From: Candidatus Dojkabacteria bacterium
GTDB lineage: Bacteria; Patescibacteriota; Dojkabacteria; B142; OLB20
Length of the DNA: 64,000 nucleotides
Direction of reading: 5' to 3'
NCBI GenBank assembly: GCA_030583785.1
Contig: CP129475.1
Location: 351,559 to 415,558, forward strand
Shown: in pieces, positions 12,865-19,528 of the stretch
Numbering within the stretch: position 1 is the first letter of the stretch
Layout: each line of letters opens with the position of its first letter
Position numbers and translations under genes: made by a program
The notes under the pieces: generated by a model
Told to the model about the DNA's origin: nothing
Seen by the model: the letters and a program-made list of their open reading frames with translations, nothing else
The model's database searches: none

Positions 12865-12954
<90 letters not shown>

Positions 12955-13006: not shown

Positions 13007-13669
13007 ATGAATAAGGCTACTAAAGGCATAGTAACCAGAGTTAGAAATACATTTTCACCTGAGTCACTAATATTTCTTTCGATAATCTTCGTTCTCGCAC
13101 TTTTACATTATTTTTATCATGACATTTTTGTTCTTGGTCATAGCAACAGCATTTTCTACCTCGACGAAGAGTTTTCTCTAGGTACGCTTTTTTCATGCAT
13201 ATTTGCATCATTCGGCGCCTTACTCGCCTTAAAACACTTTAGACACACTAAAGCAATAAGTAGCCTAGTCTGGTCAATTTTATTATTTGGGTTGTGCCTA
13301 GATGAATATCTTTCTATTCACGAGTATCTCAACGAGCTTATAAAACGAATCAGCAATCAAGAGTCCCTGTTTGTAAACATGGCGCATTATTCTTGGGTAA
13401 TCAGTTTTGGAATAGGACTTGCTGGAATTTTGTTTATATTCTTTATACAGCAACTTCGCTCAACAAAATCCAGAGCACACAAAAATCTGCTTATTGCAGC
13501 TGTAATTTGTTACAGTTTGGTTTTACCTCTAGAGGTTTTTGGTGGTCAAAGGTTTGGTAGAGAATCATACATTTATTTCATTCTAGTTGAAGAAGTTCTA
13601 GAAATGCTTGGTACCGTATTTCTGGTTGAGTTATTCATTCGTAAAAATGCAGAAGAAAGCATCGCTTAA
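13007..13669 (+). CDS. Hypothetical polytopic membrane protein
   Basis: 220 aa with several hydrophobic helices (LIFLSIIFVLALL, LFSCIFASFGALLAL, VISFGIGLAGILFIFFI...). Confidence 0.6.
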   Translation: MNKATKGIVTRVRNTFSPESLIFLSIIFVLALLHYFYHDIFVLGHSNSIFYLDEEFSLGTLFSCIFASFGALLALKHFRHTKAISSLVWSILLFGLCLDEYLSIHEYLNELIKRISNQESLFVNMAHYSWVISFGIGLAGILFIFFIQQLRSTKSRAHKNLLIAAVICYSLVLPLEVFGGQRFGRESYIYFILVEEVLEMLGTVFLVELFIRKNAEESIA

Positions 13670-14027
13670 CGATATTGTTGCTATTATTCATAACTTCAAT
13701 GAAAAGAGAGGTTGGGAATCAAACGATCCAAACCAACTAATTAGTTCTATCCTAATTGAACTTGCAGAGCTTGCAGAACATTTCCAATGGAAGGACCATT
13801 ATCCAGAATTATCAAAAGAAGAAAGGGTAAGCCTTGGATACGAATTTGTTGATGTAATCTTTTACCTATTTCGCTTGGCAGACAAAGCAGGTGTTGATAT
13901 TGAAGCAAGTTTCTTTTCCAAATTGCCTCTACTTGAAAAAAAGTTCCCCATTGGTCAGACAGATGATGAGCATTTCAAGATCAAGAAAGATTACCGCCAA
14001 ACCGGAAAGAACCGTCTCTACAGGTAG
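13647..14027 (+). CDS. MazG-like nucleotide pyrophosphohydrolase (small all-alpha NTP-PPase)
   Basis: MQKKASLNDIV...ERGWESNDPNQLISSILIELAELAEHFQWK...EFVDVIFYLFRLADKAGVDIE. The EExxE/D motif pattern is typical of the MazG/dCTPase-like family. The track ORF starts upstream at 13608 and overlaps the previous gene. Confidence 0.6.
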   Translation: MQKKASLNDIVAIIHNFNEKRGWESNDPNQLISSILIELAELAEHFQWKDHYPELSKEERVSLGYEFVDVIFYLFRLADKAGVDIEASFFSKLPLLEKKFPIGQTDDEHFKIKKDYRQTGKNRLYR

Positions 14028-14115: not shown

Positions 14116-15009
14116 TTGTCTGTTCCAGATCTACAAAAGTTTACGGCAAAGATGATCAATTCGCTGCAATTACTAACCGCGATTCTAGATTCATTGCCTC
14201 AATGTGTTCGAATTAAAATGGATGGCAAAGAAATATATAAGAATAGTCATCCACATAAAGATAAAACTACATTTATTACAAGAACTATTCCTGATTTTCC
14301 AGAACTAACCCTAGAGATTGAGGATTTTACAAAAATTGATTCCATAATTGACAAACGAATTTTTGACATTTTGAGTCATCAACTAAGAACGCCCCTAACT
14401 TCAATTAACTGGTACAGCGAGATACTAAATGAAAAAGAGCACAACTCACAGGAGGCTCAAGAAATACAAAAATCCGCCAGAAACATGACACGAATCGTTG
14501 CAGATCTACTCTTATCTATAGACCTTGAATTAGGGACATATAGGGTAGAGAACACGAAGAATAATTTGAGAGATTCGATATTATTGGCAATCAGGAATCT
14601 AGACTACAAAGATAAGATCGTTAATATCAGGATGAGTTCAAAAAAATCCGAGAACTACTTTGTCAACTGCGATAAAAAACTTCTTGAAGCGAGTTTATAC
14701 CACATAATGCAGAATTCAATTGATCATTCGACAAAAAATAAGGTGGAGATTCGGCTTGACCTTCATAAAGAAAGTAACAACTGCGCATCACTCACAATCA
14801 AAGATGATGGTACACCTCTCACATCAATGGACTTGCAGACCCTGTCGAGTAGATATTCTAGAGGAGAGGAGTCTAGGTTCTCTGTTCCGAATGGTAGCGG
14901 ACTAGGGCTATATATCGTTTCCAACTTTATGCGCCTTTCACAAGGCAAGCTTGAAATTTCAGCAAACAAAGAAATTGGATGGAGCGTTACACTTTCCTTT
15001 ACAACTTGA
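14116..15009 (+). CDS. Sensor histidine kinase, soluble with no TM segment
   Basis: 297 aa. It has an H-box (SHQLRTPLTSINWYSEIL), an N-box (YHIMQNSIDHS) and a G-box (NGSGLGLYIVSNFMRLSQGKLEI). No hydrophobic helices are visible. Confidence 0.8.
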   Translation: MSVPDLQKFTAKMINSLQLLTAILDSLPQCVRIKMDGKEIYKNSHPHKDKTTFITRTIPDFPELTLEIEDFTKIDSIIDKRIFDILSHQLRTPLTSINWYSEILNEKEHNSQEAQEIQKSARNMTRIVADLLLSIDLELGTYRVENTKNNLRDSILLAIRNLDYKDKIVNIRMSSKKSENYFVNCDKKLLEASLYHIMQNSIDHSTKNKVEIRLDLHKESNNCASLTIKDDGTPLTSMDLQTLSSRYSRGEESRFSVPNGSGLGLYIVSNFMRLSQGKLEISANKEIGWSVTLSFTT

Positions 15010-15048
15010 ACTTGTCAGAATTTATCTAAGTGTGTAGTATGAATTTAT

Positions 15049-15459
15049 ATGAAACCCTATTCAATATTAATAGTCGAAGATGAAGCTCCATTAAACAAGG
15101 CTCTGGTTTCCAGATTCTTAAATCTTGGTTATACAGTTTATGAATCAAATAATGGAACAGACGCTCTTAAACTAGCCTTTGAACACAAACCCACAGTTAT
15201 TCTTCTTGATCTTAATATGCCTAAAATGGATGGGGTAACTTTCCTAGAATATCTTCGCGAAGACAGTTGGGGGAAAACCGCCTTGGTTCTTGTCTTAACC
15301 AATTTAGATCCAGCTCCAGAAATGATTGAAAGTCTCTCTGTAACTAAGCCAGCCTACTACTTGGTAAAAGCAGAGTGGGAACTCACTGATATCGTCACAA
15401 AGGTCGAAGAAATAATATCTACGAACTTAGATTCACCCGAAACAGAACCCCAAGTCTAG
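15049..15459 (+). CDS. Single-domain response regulator (CheY-like receiver only)
   Basis: 136 aa: ILIVEDEAPLNKAL...ILLDLNMPKMDG...LVLVLTN. There is no output domain. Confidence 0.8.
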   Translation: MKPYSILIVEDEAPLNKALVSRFLNLGYTVYESNNGTDALKLAFEHKPTVILLDLNMPKMDGVTFLEYLREDSWGKTALVLVLTNLDPAPEMIESLSVTKPAYYLVKAEWELTDIVTKVEEIISTNLDSPETEPQV

Positions 15460-15521
15460 TAAGTGCGAGAGACCAAAAAACCCCCAATAGTGCTATAATA
15501 TCACAGATATATATTGCGGTT

Positions 15522-17234
15522 ATGGCTGAACCTTTAACAGATCAAAATACTAACCATCAAGAACATTTATTTGCACCAAGAAACATTAGGGAGCTTATCG
15601 ATCATTTCCTAGAAGCAGGCAAAACCATTACATCTGCAGACTCCATTTACAGTGTGTATGACCATGCCCAAGTGATGATTAATTTCATCAAAACTAATGA
15701 CGGGAAAATAATCGAGGCGGAGGAGCTGGCAATAGTCATATCTGGTATTATAAAACTTAATAGTGAACGAACCCAAAATAATGATTCAGATTCTTGGATC
15801 CAGAATTATATCCATTCGGTAGGTTCTCTCAGAGATGAAGATTCAAAACATACTGCATATTATGCTCTGGGGATTGCACTTGCGAAAGAACAGGCCAAGT
15901 TATGTGTTGAAGGATGGAAATGCAAGTATCTTGATCCTCAAATTCCCCTAGCTGAACACAATTCTCGTCTTGGTATTACACAACAAGAGGTATCTGATCT
16001 GATATTAGGCCAAGTTCCAATCCCAAATGAGAAACTAATGGATTTCAGATTGCCAGTGTTTGCAGACATAATATTACAGGTATTAAACGAAAATGATCTT
16101 GAGGCAATTCGTCTTCTTGCTCTCGAGAATCTAGCATCGCTTACTCTTGCAGACGAAAGGAATCCTAGACTTAACTGGATGAATGCACAAGAGGCACTCG
16201 GCATGCATTCAACTATGATGGAGATGCTCGGCGAGGATGGTTTAGCCATGGAACTTAGAAACAGAGCTCTCATGCAACTCGTACCAGAGCATTTCTTGCA
16301 AAAAGCTTTAGATCATATTTCTTCTGTAGAAGAACTTTACCAAAAATCGAATAGAATTAACGCCATTTTGAAAGATTCATGGAAAAAGACTATGAACAGG
16401 TTACAACTAACAGAAGCTGGAATTCACATACAAACCAGAATCAAAACAGTTGGCTCCATTGCAGAGAAACTTAGGACAGGCAGACATATTTCTGATCTAA
16501 TTGCATCTCGTGTTATTGTACCTGAACATAACGAACCAGCTCTTCTTGTAGCAGATTATGTTATGAGTTTAATTAGTTCAATAAATCGAATACCAGATCT
16601 AAGAGAGCAAGTTGAGTTCGAACATCCAAAAGGCGAGGCTCCCATTACTATCAATTACGGAAGTCGGTTAGATATTGAAAGAGCACTAGAACATATCAAG
16701 AGTTATTTTTATATTCGTAAAGAATCAATCCAACAAACTGAAACAGGCTTTAGAATTGAGTATCAAGCAAGAGGCAGAACCATTATAATCGAGTTATCTA
16801 CGGCCAGAACACCTAGAATACCAGGTTACGAAGACCAAATTGGTTACCAAGCTGCGCATATAGTTACAAAATTTGCTGATCAAAAGTGTTTCGAAATGCA
16901 AGTAGTCGATAGATTTGCACATGATAACAATACACATGGCTATCCTTCACATGCATTATATAAAGCAGCACTTTCAGCTGGAACAACTGGTGATAAGTCA
17001 GAAACGCAAAGTTTCGTAGATGAATTTCTAGAAAGAACGAAAGATATCAATCAAAGAAAAGCAATGCTTTATACTGAGGATTCAGGTAATAGGCGTAACC
17101 CACGATGGCTAAGAGTTGTTACTCTACAACAATTACAAAGCTTATTATTGGAGCACAATTCTCAAATTCCAAACTCAGTAATTGCAAGACTTTGTCCAGC
17201 TGATTATCAAATAATCACAGGGCAACAACTATAA
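15522..17234 (+). CDS. RelA/SpoT-homologue (RSH) protein with a (p)ppGpp-synthetase-type nucleotidyltransferase domain and a divergent N-terminal region; it lacks the TGS/ACT C-terminal domains
   Basis: 570 aa. The SYNTH G-loop is RIKTVGSIAEKLRTGR, followed by DLIASRVIV. A ...CFEMQVVDRFAHDNNTHGYPSHALYKAA segment aligns to the EIQIRT...MH..AE.G.AAHW.YK motif of Rel/RelA. An unusually long insertion of about 100 aa lies between these motifs. Confidence 0.6.
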   Translation: MAEPLTDQNTNHQEHLFAPRNIRELIDHFLEAGKTITSADSIYSVYDHAQVMINFIKTNDGKIIEAEELAIVISGIIKLNSERTQNNDSDSWIQNYIHSVGSLRDEDSKHTAYYALGIALAKEQAKLCVEGWKCKYLDPQIPLAEHNSRLGITQQEVSDLILGQVPIPNEKLMDFRLPVFADIILQVLNENDLEAIRLLALENLASLTLADERNPRLNWMNAQEALGMHSTMMEMLGEDGLAMELRNRALMQLVPEHFLQKALDHISSVEELYQKSNRINAILKDSWKKTMNRLQLTEAGIHIQTRIKTVGSIAEKLRTGRHISDLIASRVIVPEHNEPALLVADYVMSLISSINRIPDLREQVEFEHPKGEAPITINYGSRLDIERALEHIKSYFYIRKESIQQTETGFRIEYQARGRTIIIELSTARTPRIPGYEDQIGYQAAHIVTKFADQKCFEMQVVDRFAHDNNTHGYPSHALYKAALSAGTTGDKSETQSFVDEFLERTKDINQRKAMLYTEDSGNRRNPRWLRVVTLQQLQSLLLEHNSQIPNSVIARLCPADYQIITGQQL

Positions 17235-17309: not shown

Positions 17310-18569
17310 TTGTATAAGATCAAGTTTAATACTATGCGTAAACCTAGCAAAATTATCCTGCTCCTATTACTCAGTTTTCTAATTGCATCACCAGTATTTG
17401 CGCAGAGTTTGGATTCAAGTAATTATTCTATATTGGATGCCACGGTTGATAGTGGAGGAGGTCAAATGACAAGCACAAATTATGCTGGTGTAATTTCTGT
17501 AGGCAACCCAACGGCAGACACTAGAATGACAAGTGGTAGTTATGCCTTGGGCTCTGGATTTCCAAATGGCATACAAGCAAATGTTCCAGAACTGATCTGT
17601 TTTGAAACCGACACTGATTCAAACTCAACCTTATGTCAAAGCTTTCCAAATGCAAATGGAGCACAAGGAGAATGCGGTTATCCGGGCTGTTACGATCGAG
17701 CAAAATTAGAAATCGACCCCTCAGCCAATCCTGTTGACACATTATATTTAATAAGAATCGAAGACCTTGAAACCAACACAATTTATTATCTACAAAGTGA
17801 TCACACTCTCGATACAACATACGAAATTGCCGACTTTTTTACTAAATGTTCCCTTGAAGGTTTTGATGCCAACGACCCTGACTGCGATGAAGATACTGAT
17901 CCCAACTGGGACGAAACCCTGCAAAGATACAATGTTTTTGGTTTAGAACCAGACAGAGAGTATTCTGTATCTGTAAGTGCACTAAGCGGAGACTACACTG
18001 GCTCTGCATTCAGCGAACCTCTTAACTCAACAACAGAAAGCCCTTCCATACTATTTGACCTTGATGTGTCCGAAACTGATTCCAATTCGGACAGCCCTTA
18101 CGAGCTTGATCTGGGCGAGTTAATATATGTAGCAGTGACTACTGCACCGGCTAGGATCTGGGTGGATCTAAATACCAATGCAGTGAATGGTGCAAATATC
18201 TATATAAGAAGTGCCAATGGTGCACTTGTATCCAACCAAACAGGAGAAACTATTCCTTCAGAGACAGAAGACCTCGCCCTCGATAGTAATGCGAACGGAG
18301 GTTATGGAATTAAAGTCGATTCTGTCACGCAGACAGAACTCGGCCCATTGCTTGCAAATAGTTTATACGATACAACTGGTGCCCAAGAAGTGGGTGTATT
18401 ATCAATCAATAATACATTACTATTCTACACAGAAAGCTTGAACAACAACTCTGGTCCCATTCTTCAAGGAAGAGGTGGAGTTGCAGTTAAAGCCAGATCG
18501 TCCATTACCGACATTGCATCTGGTGATCTTAACGATCAATTGACTTTTATTTGCATAGGAAACTATTGA
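17310..18569 (+). CDS. Secreted protein, hypothetical
   Basis: 419 aa. There is a signal peptide after an internal Met (MRKPSKIILLLLLSFLIASPVFAQS), so the probable start is ATG 17334. It is Cys-containing and rich in D/N/T. Confidence 0.6.
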   Translation: MYKIKFNTMRKPSKIILLLLLSFLIASPVFAQSLDSSNYSILDATVDSGGGQMTSTNYAGVISVGNPTADTRMTSGSYALGSGFPNGIQANVPELICFETDTDSNSTLCQSFPNANGAQGECGYPGCYDRAKLEIDPSANPVDTLYLIRIEDLETNTIYYLQSDHTLDTTYEIADFFTKCSLEGFDANDPDCDEDTDPNWDETLQRYNVFGLEPDREYSVSVSALSGDYTGSAFSEPLNSTTESPSILFDLDVSETDSNSDSPYELDLGELIYVAVTTAPARIWVDLNTNAVNGANIYIRSANGALVSNQTGETIPSETEDLALDSNANGGYGIKVDSVTQTELGPLLANSLYDTTGAQEVGVLSINNTLLFYTESLNNNSGPILQGRGGVAVKARSSITDIASGDLNDQLTFICIGNY

Positions 18570-18570
18570 T

Positions 18571-19449
18571 ATGAACAAACTGACGATTGTTTTTTCTGTT
18601 CTTGCCTTGCTTTTTTCGAGTTTCGCTACAAAAGCTACTGCTCAAGAAGTAAGCGGTCTTCTTGTTTCGCCTGCTGTAACAATTGTTCAAGAGGAGGATC
18701 TTGGAAGCACAGTCGGCATCAAACTAGTTAATAATAGCTCAAGCGAAGTAACAATCAAGCCGACAATTAAGACTGTCGAAAGAGGAGAGGACGGAAAAGT
18801 AATCAACATTGAAGACGGTAGTCAAGACTCAATACTTGATTTCTCAACTGAAATAATAACCCTTACCCCTTCTGGTGAATATACTCTTCCTGTCAGAATT
18901 AAAATCGAAGAATACTCAGGTTCTGGATATCCTGCAGTTGCATTTACCTTGCTTTCAGAAAAGGGTGACCAAACTGTTGACATAACAAAAGAGTTGTATA
19001 GCGTTTTTCTTATCCAGAATATTAAGGGGAACCTAGGGATAGATAGTTCCATAGAAGTCAACTCAAAACCCATTTTAATCTCTCCCGAACTCACTATTTC
19101 GGGTCAAGTAATCAACTCTGGTACGAAATTCTTTAACCCTAGCGGGACCATGCGATTGTATAAAGGAAAGACATTAATCAACGAGCAGCAGATAACGACT
19201 CAAATTGAAGGTCTATTATTTGCTTCGCAACAGAAACCATTTAGTTCAGTAATACAGTTACCAGGAAACATTTTAGAAAGGCTAGGTGAGTATACACTAG
19301 AAACCAGAATCCAGCCGTCACCTTTTGATCAAACTCATGTTACAAAGGTTCATTTCTACCATGTACCGGTTGAATATTTTGCAATTATTATCCCCATTCT
19401 GTTAATTACCATTCTTTCTGTAAGCTTACTAAAAGGTAAAAAAAGATAG
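18571..19449 (+). CDS. Secreted protein with a C-terminal TM anchor and basic tail, hypothetical
   Basis: 292 aa. N-terminal signal MNKLTIVFSVLALLFSSFATKATA and a C-terminal AIIIPILLITILSVSLLKGKKR. Confidence 0.6.
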   Translation: MNKLTIVFSVLALLFSSFATKATAQEVSGLLVSPAVTIVQEEDLGSTVGIKLVNNSSSEVTIKPTIKTVERGEDGKVINIEDGSQDSILDFSTEIITLTPSGEYTLPVRIKIEEYSGSGYPAVAFTLLSEKGDQTVDITKELYSVFLIQNIKGNLGIDSSIEVNSKPILISPELTISGQVINSGTKFFNPSGTMRLYKGKTLINEQQITTQIEGLLFASQQKPFSSVIQLPGNILERLGEYTLETRIQPSPFDQTHVTKVHFYHVPVEYFAIIIPILLITILSVSLLKGKKR

Positions 19450-19528
19450 CCAATAACCTCTAAAAACTTGACCAGTGTTCAGGTTTTCTCTACACTTTTA
19501 ACAAGCACTACTATTATTTAGAAGCCTT

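What the first reader, a model, noticed from the sequence alone, without database searches (positions are those of the whole stretch)
15522..17234. RSH protein with an atypical synthetase domain: a ~100-aa insertion between the G-loop and the catalytic EIQIRT-equivalent, and a degenerate HD region
In canonical Rel/RelA, the G-loop (RxKxxxSxxxK) and the catalytic ExQIRT motif are separated by about 60 residues. Here RIKTVGSIAEKL and CFEMQVVDRFAHDNNTHGYPSHALYKAA are about 150 residues apart. The catalytic Glu is retained, but QIRT has become QVVD. The N-terminal 280 aa does not show a clear HD (His-Asp) hydrolase motif. This could be a new RSH subfamily, for example one that makes a different alarmone such as (p)ppApp, or a toxSAS-like enzyme.
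Basis: inference. Interest (0 to 1): 0.55.

Follow-up and report, generated by a model that had tools for sequence, protein, structure and literature searches.

The report
Divergent alarmone synthetase with enlarged G-loop
This gene from a tiny candidate-phylum bacterium (WS6/Dojkabacteria) encodes a very divergent relative of the RelA/SpoT stress-alarmone enzymes: it keeps the synthetase catalytic residues, has lost its hydrolase site and has no ribosome-sensing tail, carries a folded ~60-residue insert in the substrate-binding loop, and sits beside a two-component sensor pair that may control it.

Summary
The ORF (15522-17234, +, 570 aa) is real and is an RSH protein. Pfam RelA_SpoT only just passes, but a profile of its 18-20 relatives matches Rel/RelA N-terminal halves (E 1.5e-18). 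A confident AlphaFold model (pLDDT 86) finds only long-RSH HD+SYNTH structures as top hits.

Canonical R-to-E spacing is 82-83 residues, not ~60, so the extra length is ~70 aa, not ~100. RxKxxxSxxxK is the ATP-phosphate motif, not the G-loop. Most of the extra length (63 versus 7 residues) sits in the true G-loop (beta3-beta4, carrying the acceptor-stacking Tyr) as a confidently folded alpha/beta subdomain.

All core SYNTH residues (R306, K308, S312, K316, D325, Y442, H446, E458) are conserved across the family. The Arg of ExQxRT is absent family-wide. The HD metal ligands are kept in 17 of 19 relatives but lost in this protein. There is no TGS or ACT domain.

In six lineages the gene follows a histidine kinase and a receiver-only response regulator. 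The family is rare, unannotated and, where named, from Patescibacteria.

Best reading: a hydrolase-dead, probably active pyrophosphokinase of a new divergent RSH subfamily, possibly under two-component control. The product is unknown. A toxSAS reading is not supported.

The parts
15522..17234 (+). RSH-like gene, 570 aa, hS-type: pseudo-HD + SYNTH + short helical tail, with no TGS or ACT domain
   Evidence: ORF. Pfam RelA_SpoT is the only hit even at E<=10. The family profile matches Rel N-terminal structures. AF2 model has pLDDT 86. Foldseek top 28 hits are all long-RSH N-terminal halves.
15579..16151 (+). Degenerate HD (hydrolase-like) domain, aa ~20-210. H48 and E202 are kept. R38S, H74S, D75G, D205A and N206S replace the family and canonical ligands.
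   Evidence: Colinear profile match to the Rel HD domain. Residue table: 17 of 19 relatives keep R/H/HD/E/N; the query and P0008 do not. No HD dipeptide in the first 305 aa.
15741..15746 (+). S74-G75, at the position of the HD dyad (RelSeq H77-D78)
   Evidence: Alignments A1 and the mafft alignment; mapping to T. thermophilus Rel.
16152..16412 (+). Helical linker bundle between the HD and SYNTH domains (aa ~211-297)
   Evidence: Best-scoring stretch against Rel structures: profile 213-363 to chain 136-287, E 3e-12. Helices 215-293 in the model.
16413..16976 (+). SYNTH (pyrophosphokinase) domain, aa ~298-485
   Evidence: Pfam aa 306-482. SYNTH profile against RelSeq 1vj7, E 1.6e-11.
16437..16469 (+). 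ATP-phosphate motif R306-x-K308-xxG-S312-xxx-K316 (RelSeq R241/K243/S247/K251).
   Evidence: Invariant in 20 family members. Mapped. The roles of the equivalent residues in SaRelP are given in PMC5794853.
16494..16511 (+). D325 (Mg2+ ligand, RelSeq D264) and R330 (RelSeq R269; the adenine-stacking Arg112 position of SaRelP) on strand beta2
   Evidence: D325 is invariant. Position 330 is variable in the family. Mapping.
16656..16844 (+). Insertion inside the true G-loop (aa 379-441). It is a folded alpha/beta subdomain: helix 382-395 and strands 403-405, 409-416, 419-426.
   Evidence: pLDDT 87-97 over aa 371-450. 63 residues from beta3 to the Tyr, against 7 in RelSeq. No Pfam domain.
16845..16859 (+). 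Y442-Q-A-A-H446: the acceptor-stacking Tyr and the His (RelSeq Y308, H312)
   Evidence: Nearly invariant in the family. Mapped.
16893..16910 (+). Catalytic strand E458-M-Q460-V-V462-D463 (RelSeq E323-I-Q-I-R327-T). The Glu is kept and the Arg is replaced.
   Evidence: E is invariant. The R327 position is never Arg in any of 20 members.
16977..17231 (+). C-terminal helical tail (aa 486-570), family-specific; neither TGS nor ACT
   Evidence: Helices 492-517, 532-544, 551-566 in the model. No Pfam hit.
15049..15459 (+). Receiver-only response regulator (136 aa; D11, D54, T84, K106), immediately upstream
   Evidence: Pfam Response_reg 60 bits. 46-52% identical orthologues lie directly upstream of the RSH gene in L004, L006, L007, L008/L014 and L013.
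14116..15009 (+). Soluble histidine kinase (HisKA + HATPase_c, 297 aa)
   Evidence: Pfam. Syntenic in L004, L006, L007 and L008/L014.
13608..14027 (+). MazG-like NTP pyrophosphohydrolase ORF. Association is weak: conserved only in the second WS6 genome.
   Evidence: Pfam MazG-like 27.2 bits against a cutoff of 27. 60% identical gene upstream in L004.

Best explanation
The gene encodes a member of a small, very divergent, apparently Patescibacteria-restricted branch of the RelA/SpoT-homologue superfamily. The branch derives from the HD+SYNTH catalytic half of long RSHs and has no ribosome-sensing TGS/ACT half.

Shown:
- It has the two-domain Rel-like fold.
- Every core synthetase residue is present and invariant or nearly so across the family: the ATP-phosphate R/K/S/K motif, both Mg2+ carboxylates, and the acceptor-stacking Tyr with its His.
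- This particular protein has lost the HD metal and catalytic ligands that most of its relatives keep. It is the counterpart of RelA's [hS] state.
- The guanosine-binding G-loop has grown from ~8 residues into a confidently folded ~60-residue alpha/beta subdomain.
- The Arg of ExQxRT and the beta3 RxKD/ExDD motif are not conserved.

Inferred:
- It is an active ATP-dependent 3'-pyrophosphokinase. It most probably makes (p)ppGpp or a close analogue.
- It cannot degrade its own product.
- Its activity is set through the enlarged G-loop subdomain and the pseudo-HD domain, not through the ribosome.
- In the WS6-type lineages the input is the adjacent soluble histidine kinase and receiver-only response regulator, which has no output domain of its own and would act on the enzyme by direct binding.
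For: - Fold and homology.
- Invariant catalytic residues in 20 members that share only 19-31% overall identity.
- Loss of the HD ligands in the query only (plus P0008).
- No TGS or ACT domain.
- Size and confidence of the G-loop insertion.
- G-loop rigidity governs activity and allostery in RelQ/RelP: PMC5794853.
- HK, then REC-only RR, then RSH, in six distinct lineages. The RR is 46-52% identical while the RSH is only 23-41% identical.
- The largest G-loop inserts (44-69 aa) are in the TCS-linked members, against 28-37 aa in stand-alone members.
Against: - There are no biochemical data.
- The Arg of ExQxRT is missing family-wide. The adenine-stacking Arg position (330) is variable. The beta3 phosphate-binding motif is not recognisable. 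The chemistry or substrate may therefore differ, or activity may be low.
- The protein evolves much faster than its neighbours.
- HK-RR synteny is absent from the Saccharibacteria-type members. The TCS-linked members are not recovered as one clade in a simple NJ tree (1 of 200 bootstraps).
- The HK-RR pair could instead serve the conserved downstream surface-protein genes.
- An extended -10 element upstream of the gene suggests it may also be transcribed on its own.
Confidence: 0.6

Rival explanations
1. The enzyme is active but uses a different acceptor. It would make (pp)pApp, or pyrophosphorylate another 3'-OH substrate, because the acceptor side of the active site (G-loop, beta3, the ExQxRT Arg) has been rebuilt.
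For: - The G-loop is enlarged from 7 to 63 residues.
- The beta3 RxKD/ExDD motif is replaced by xEINY.
- RelSeq R327 is replaced by a hydrophobic residue in all 20 members.
- A family-specific GH(T)R motif lies before beta3.
- The literature says acceptor choice has shifted several times within the RSH fold.
Against: - The stacking Tyr, the following His and a basic residue before GY are all kept as in (p)ppGpp synthetases.
- The SYNTH profile scores higher against Rel/RelA (36-48 bits) than against FaRel2 (23) or CapRel (19).
- I had no sequence signature available that discriminates products.
Confidence: 0.2
2. It is a pseudoenzyme or scaffold. Both catalytic domains would be inactive, and the protein would act only as a binding partner, for example for the receiver protein or for nucleotides.
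For: - The HD site is clearly dead in this protein.
- The protein diverges far faster than its neighbours: 26-31% identity between OLB20 and OLB21, against 52-70% for the RR, d1 and d3.
- The ExQxRT Arg is lost.
Against: R306, K308, G311, K316, D325, E458 and Y480 are invariant, and S312, Y442 and H446 nearly so, across members at ~20-30% overall identity. That pattern is what purifying selection on catalysis would produce.
Confidence: 0.12
3. It is a toxSAS-like toxin or defence effector.
For: It is highly divergent and fast-evolving, with an atypical SYNTH domain.
Against: - It is not a single-domain SAS.
- It has no small adjacent antitoxin-like gene.
- Its chromosomal neighbourhood is conserved, in two different versions.
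- No PADLOC model matches and there is no homologue in 50,697 phage records.
- It is structurally closest to housekeeping long RSHs.
Confidence: 0.05

Closest known systems
Catalytic N-terminal half of long RSHs (Rel of S. equisimilis 1vj7, T. thermophilus 6s2t/6s2u, B. subtilis 6yxa/8acu, M. tuberculosis 5xnx; E. coli RelA 5iqr)
   Same: Colinear HD domain, helical linker and SYNTH domain. Same ATP motif, Mg2+ Asp and Glu, G-loop Tyr and His, and (A)HxxYK helix.
   Different: No TGS, helical, ZFD or ACT regulatory half. About 70 extra residues in SYNTH, ~56 of them in the G-loop. The Arg of ExQxRT is absent. No RxKD/ExDD motif. 11-14% identity in structural alignments.
RelA, the [hS] state (inactive pseudo-hydrolase domain plus active synthetase; Atkinson et al. 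2011, PMC3153485)
   Same: The HD fold is kept while the catalytic and metal ligands are lost, next to an apparently intact SYNTH.
   Different: The loss is an independent event inside a different family, since most of its relatives still have H...HD...E..N. There is no ribosome-binding C-terminal domain.
Small alarmone synthetases RelQ/RelP (G-loop-controlled activity; Steinchen et al. 2018, PMC5794853)
   Same: No ribosome-sensing domains. In these enzymes activity is set by the order or disorder of the beta3-beta4 G-loop, the very element that is remodelled here.
   Different: Those are single-domain homotetramers with a short G-loop. This protein has an N-terminal HD-like domain and a 63-residue structured G-loop, and gives weaker profile scores to them (25-29 bits).
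toxSAS and (pp)pApp synthetases (FaRel, FaRel2, CapRel, Tas1)
   Same: A divergent SYNTH fold with the conserved Asp and Tyr.
   Different: Different architecture, gene context and distribution. Among the weakest RSH matches in both searches: FaRel2 23 bits and CapRel 19 bits by profile, Foldseek E 4e-3 for CapRel, and Tas1 not found.
Plant Rsh4/CRSH-type RSHs (C-terminal domain replaced by another sensor, degrading HD domain; PMC3153485)
   Same: A precedent for an RSH that swaps ribosome control for another input and lets its HD domain decay.
   Different: In those the sensor (an EF-hand) is fused. Here the candidate sensor is a separate HK/REC pair, inferred only from synteny.

Membership tests
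RSH superfamily, SYNTH (RelA_SpoT, PF04607) domain | Significant match to the family model or fold | tested here: met
   Pfam 27.8 bits against a cutoff of 27. 12 of 18 relatives match at E<0.01. SYNTH profile against RelSeq, E 1.6e-11. Foldseek probability 1.0.
RSH superfamily, SYNTH domain | ATP beta/gamma-phosphate motif RxKxxxSxxxK | tested here: met
   R306, K308, S312, K316; invariant or nearly invariant in 20 members.
RSH superfamily, SYNTH domain | Two Mg2+-coordinating carboxylates (RelSeq D264, E323) | tested here: met
   D325 and E458, invariant.
RSH superfamily, SYNTH domain | G-loop Tyr that stacks on the acceptor base (RelSeq Y308) | tested here: met
   Y442, present in 19 of 20 members.
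RSH superfamily, SYNTH domain | Full ExQxRT catalytic-strand motif | tested here: not met
   The query reads E-M-Q-V-V-D. The Arg position is never Arg in the family. Its functional weight could not be established here.
RSH superfamily, SYNTH domain | ATP-dependent 3'-pyrophosphokinase activity | not testable with these tools
   Needs an enzyme assay.
Long RSH (Rel/RelA/SpoT) | N-terminal HD-fold domain followed by SYNTH | tested here: met
   Three colinear profile stretches against Rel N-terminal structures. About 460 aligned columns in Foldseek.
Long RSH (Rel/RelA/SpoT) | C-terminal regulatory region (TGS, helical, ZFD, ACT/RRM) | tested here: not met
   No TGS or ACT hit at E<=10. Only 89 helical residues follow SYNTH.
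Bifunctional Rel/SpoT hydrolase | HD active site: R44, H53, H77-D78, E81-D82, D144, N148 (RelSeq numbering) | tested here: not met
   The query has S38, H48, S74-G75, K78-L79, E202 and S206. Most relatives keep R/H/HD/E/N but also lack the ED pair. L001 has the full HDxxED.
Small alarmone synthetase (SAS) | Single SYNTH domain protein of ~200-300 aa | tested here: not met
   305 residues of HD-like domain plus linker precede SYNTH.
toxSAS toxin-antitoxin module | Conserved bicistronic or tricistronic operon with a small antitoxin gene, often on mobile elements or phages | tested here: not met
   The neighbours are HK, RR and surface-protein genes, or GNAT/LemA genes in the other clade. No PADLOC hit. 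No phage homologue.
toxSAS toxin-antitoxin module | Growth inhibition on expression, neutralised by a cognate partner | not testable with these tools
   Needs an expression experiment.
Named RSH subfamilies of Atkinson 2011 / Jimmy 2020 | Best match to one of the 54 subfamily HMMs | not testable with these tools
   The HMMs and tables are not held. The authors state that extremely divergent, unalignable proteins were removed.

The most novel reading that the evidence does not exclude
In Dojkabacteria-type CPR bacteria, alarmone synthesis has been uncoupled from the ribosome and placed under a two-component system. A soluble histidine kinase phosphorylates a receiver-only protein. That protein docks on the enlarged, structured G-loop subdomain (or on the pseudo-HD domain) of a C-terminal-domain-less, hydrolase-dead RSH and switches acceptor binding on or off. 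This would be a new regulatory logic for the stringent-response enzyme family, possibly tied to the conserved surface-protein cluster downstream.
Probability: 0.25. Interest if true: 0.72.

Novelty: new variant of a known kind. Interest (0 to 1): 0.5.

Why it matters
Nothing on (p)ppGpp signalling in Patescibacteria turned up in the literature I could search. These organisms have minimal genomes and an epibiotic lifestyle, so how they sense starvation or host contact is open.

This family shows that at least some of them keep an RSH catalytic core while discarding the ribosome-sensing half. It also shows that the G-loop, the element that tunes activity in small synthetases, can be elaborated into a whole subdomain.

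If the HK/REC link is real, it would be a post-translational two-component input into an alarmone synthetase. I found no precedent for that in the held literature. The family is also a natural series (G-loop of 9, ~30 and ~60 residues; HD site intact or dead) for structure-function work on RSH enzymes.

Tried and rejected
- The word-indexed homology searches returned only the protein itself, P0005 or canonical long RSHs. Relatives came only from the exhaustive HMMER search and the pattern scans.
- The single-sequence AF2 model was unusable (pLDDT 41). The 18-row alignment fixed this.
- The first genome scan with alignment A1 failed for lack of a conserved block.
- NCBIfam gave only sub-threshold noise.
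- PADLOC, the phage collection and Rfam (one tRNA, no riboswitch) gave nothing that bears on the gene.
- The insert and the C-terminal tail alone have no Pfam match.
- The promoter/terminator scan is at chance level.
- The NJ tree did not resolve whether TCS-linked members form a clade.
- Searching the literature for 'QIRT' was useless. I could not establish the role of the ExQxRT Arg.
- The supplements of Jimmy et al. are not held.
- A weak Foldseek hit of ~120 columns to the beta-alpha-beta-beta-beta protein TnmS1 (E 0.17) is not significant, and I did not use it.
- The antisense ORF at 15938-16273 was treated as spurious, since it lies inside a conserved coding region.
Full report
**Observation.**
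The ORF exists exactly as given: 15522..17234, + strand, 570 aa. RIKTVGSIAEKL is at aa 306-317 and CFEMQVVD at aa 456-463, so the Arg of RxK and the catalytic Glu are 152 residues apart. The only 'HD' dipeptide in the protein is at 467, inside the synthetase domain. There is none in the first 305 residues.

The window is essentially the deposited contig of candidate division WS6 bacterium OLB21 (Candidatus Dojkabacteria). There the protein is a 'hypothetical protein', 99% identical.

**Is it really an RSH?**
On its own the sequence only just passes Pfam RelA_SpoT: 27.8 bits against a cutoff of 27, aa 306-482 over profile positions 2-110. Against PDB sequences it gives E 0.5 to Rel.

An exhaustive HMMER scan of 1.84 billion cluster representatives found only 18 proteins at E<=1e-3. 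These are 19-31% identical and mostly 560-660 aa. A profile of these matches the N-terminal catalytic halves of Rel, RelA and SpoT structures at E 1.5e-18 to 1e-13. The match comes as three colinear stretches: the HD domain, the HD C-terminus with linker and SYNTH N-terminus, and the SYNTH C-terminus.

With the 18-row alignment, AlphaFold2 gives a confident model (pLDDT 86.1, pTM 0.86). The single-sequence model had failed (pLDDT 41). The 28 best Foldseek matches in the PDB are all long-RSH N-terminal halves, with probability 1.0 and ~460 aligned columns. Small synthetases and CapRel come later. The homology is therefore secure.

**Residue map.**
Using the profile alignment to RelSeq (1vj7):

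| Query | RelSeq |
|---|---|
| R306 | R241 |
| K308 | K243 |
| S312 | S247 |
| K316 | K251 |
| D325 | D264 |
| R330 | R269 |
| Y442 | Y308 |
| H446 | H312 |
| E458 | E323 |
| Q460 | Q325 |
| V462 | R327 |
| D463 | T328 |

H477, Y480 and K481 correspond to the AHWxYK helix.

In 20 non-redundant family members R306, K308, G311, K316, D325, E458 and Y480 are invariant. S312, Y442 and H446 are nearly so. According to Steinchen et al. 2018 (PMC5794853), the equivalent residues of SaRelP bind the ATP phosphates (Lys80, Ser84, Lys88, Arg91), the Mg2+ ion (Asp107, Glu174), the adenine (Arg78, Arg112) and the ribose (His190).

The catalytic core therefore appears to be under purifying selection.

There are two departures from the canonical site. 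The Arg of ExQxRT is never Arg in this family. The adenine-stacking position 330 is variable, although it is Arg in the query.

**The insertion.**
Canonical spacing is 82 residues from RelSeq R241 to E323 and 83 in three canonical long RSHs, not ~60. The excess is therefore ~70 residues, which agrees with Pfam's +68, not ~100.

The label 'G-loop' belongs to the beta3-beta4 loop that carries the conserved Tyr (PMC5794853). It does not belong to RxKxxxSxxxK.

Splitting the excess:
- About 18 extra residues lie between beta2 and beta3.
- About 56 lie in the G-loop itself: 63 residues between beta3 (ITIN, 375-378) and Y442, against 7 in RelSeq.

The model folds this segment with pLDDT 87-97 as a helix (382-395) plus three strands (403-405, 409-416, 419-426). 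It has no Pfam match.

The insert is a family trait of graded size:

| Members | Residues from beta3 to the Tyr |
|---|---|
| P0018 | 9 |
| Stand-alone (Saccharibacteria-type) members | 28-37 |
| The query and its closer relatives | 44-69 |

In beta3 the RxKD/ExDD motif of Rel/RelA is replaced by xEINY, and a family-specific GH(T)R motif precedes it. That alignment is approximate.

**HD domain.**
The family consensus keeps the canonical Arg, the first His, the HD dyad, an acidic residue (Glu) at the position of RelSeq D144, and the Asn. Of 19 members with an N-terminus, 17 keep them. The query (S38, S74-G75, A205, S206; H48 and E202 retained) and P0008 do not.

Most members also lack the ED pair after HD. 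One Saccharibacteria protein (L001) has the full HDxxED.

By motif, then, the query is a hydrolase-dead [hS] member, analogous to RelA (PMC3153485). The fold of the domain is still predicted with pLDDT ~90.

**What is missing.**
No TGS, ACT or other domain is detectable. Only 89 helical residues follow SYNTH. No other RSH gene lies in the 64-kb window.

**Context.**
In the window the gene follows a soluble HisKA/HATPase_c kinase (14116-15009) and a receiver-only response regulator (15049-15459). Further upstream is a MazG-like ORF. Downstream is a co-directional cluster of secreted or membrane proteins (fn3; CarboxypepD_reg; a 1525-aa protein).

The order HK, RR, RSH, d1, d2, d3 recurs in WS6 OLB20 (L004) and in metagenomic contigs L006, L007, L008/L014 and L013. 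In those loci the RR is 46-52% identical and d1 and d3 are 52-70% identical. The RSH is only 23-41% identical and the HK 24-34%.

Other family members have different neighbours and no HK or RR. These include Saccharibacteria MAGs L001 and L002, and also L003, L009-L012, L015-L017 and L020-L022. Three of them share a GNAT ... LemA context.

A simple NJ tree does not recover the TCS-linked proteins as a clade (1 of 200 bootstraps). The deep branches are long and poorly resolved.

Promoter and terminator scans are at chance level. By eye there is an extended -10 (TGCTATAAT, 15491-15499) 22 nt before the start codon.

**Interpretation.**
Shown: this is an RSH of the long-RSH catalytic-half type with an intact-looking synthetase core, a dead hydrolase site, no ribosome-sensing half and a remodelled G-loop.

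Inferred: it is an active pyrophosphokinase. The conservation pattern argues against a pseudoenzyme. The product is most likely (p)ppGpp or a close analogue, for two reasons:
- The Tyr, the His and the basic G-loop residues are retained.
- The domain scores better against Rel/RelA than against FaRel2 or CapRel.

The rebuilt acceptor side leaves (pp)pApp or another acceptor open, and sequence cannot decide this.

G-loop order controls activity and allostery in RelQ/RelP, and the receiver protein has no output domain. The most economical regulatory hypothesis is therefore that the phosphorylated receiver, or another ligand, acts on the G-loop subdomain or the pseudo-HD domain. This rests on synteny in six lineages only and is not family-wide.

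The toxSAS idea is not supported, on four grounds:
- the architecture of the protein;
- the conserved chromosomal context;
- no PADLOC hit;
- no phage homologue.

**Novelty.**
The named members are annotated 'hypothetical'. Pfam sees 12 of 18 members at E<0.01 and the query only marginally. I found no paper linking (p)ppGpp to Patescibacteria, and none describing a receiver-controlled RSH enzyme.

I could not test membership in the 54 subfamilies of Jimmy et al. 2020. Those authors excluded extremely divergent sequences.

I classify the protein as a new variant (a divergent subfamily) of a known kind. Interest is moderate. It would rise if two-component control or a new product were demonstrated.

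Noticed in passing
window 17310-25438 (+); also L004, L006, L007, L008, L013: A co-directional cluster lies downstream: a 419-aa fn3 protein with a signal peptide, a 292-aa protein, a 443-aa protein with two CarboxypepD_reg domains, and a 1525-aa protein with no Pfam hit. It travels with the HK-RR-RSH genes in five other lineages and is far better conserved (52-70% identity) than the RSH. It may be a cell-surface structure whose relation to the TCS/RSH genes is unknown.
   Followed up: partly
window 13608-14027 (+): A MazG-like NTP pyrophosphohydrolase ORF (Pfam 27.2 bits against a cutoff of 27) lies upstream of the kinase. A 60% identical gene is upstream in WS6 OLB20 (L004). It could be an alternative alarmone or NTP hydrolase for a hydrolase-dead RSH, but OLB20's RSH still has its HD ligands, so there is no correlation.
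   Followed up: partly
window 15491-15499 (+): An extended -10-like element TGCTATAAT lies 22 nt upstream of the RSH start codon, in the 62-nt gap after the response regulator gene. The consensus scan, which needs a -35 hexamer, did not list it.
   Followed up: no
window 12865-12951 (+): A tRNA gene (Rfam 66 bits) is the only Rfam match in the 64-kb window. No riboswitch of any kind was found.
   Followed up: no
P0018 (L012 167-2638): This 823-aa family member has a canonical-length G-loop (9 residues). By eye it also has a second HD-like region C-terminal of SYNTH (ILHDYVE ... ADRWQNHV), which Pfam does not detect at E<0.01. It could be an HD-SYNTH-HD architecture.
   Followed up: partly
L009, L010, L020: The stand-alone family members share a second conserved neighbourhood: a GNAT acetyltransferase, a ~300-aa protein and a 450-520-aa protein transcribed divergently upstream, and a 680-aa protein, LemA and SBP_bac_5 convergent downstream.
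   Followed up: no
window 15522-17234 versus L005 10001-11713; window 14116-15009: Against the deposited OLB21 contig, the RSH gene differs at 6 nucleotides, all within its last 126 nt (3 amino-acid changes: S540G, Q548L, R556S). The kinase is only 93% identical while the response regulator is 100% identical. This suggests local strain variation or an assembly difference.
   Followed up: no
window 14116-17234 compared with L004: Between the two WS6 genomes the kinase (30%) and the RSH (26-31%) are the fastest-evolving genes of the block. The receiver protein between them is 52% identical.
   Followed up: partly
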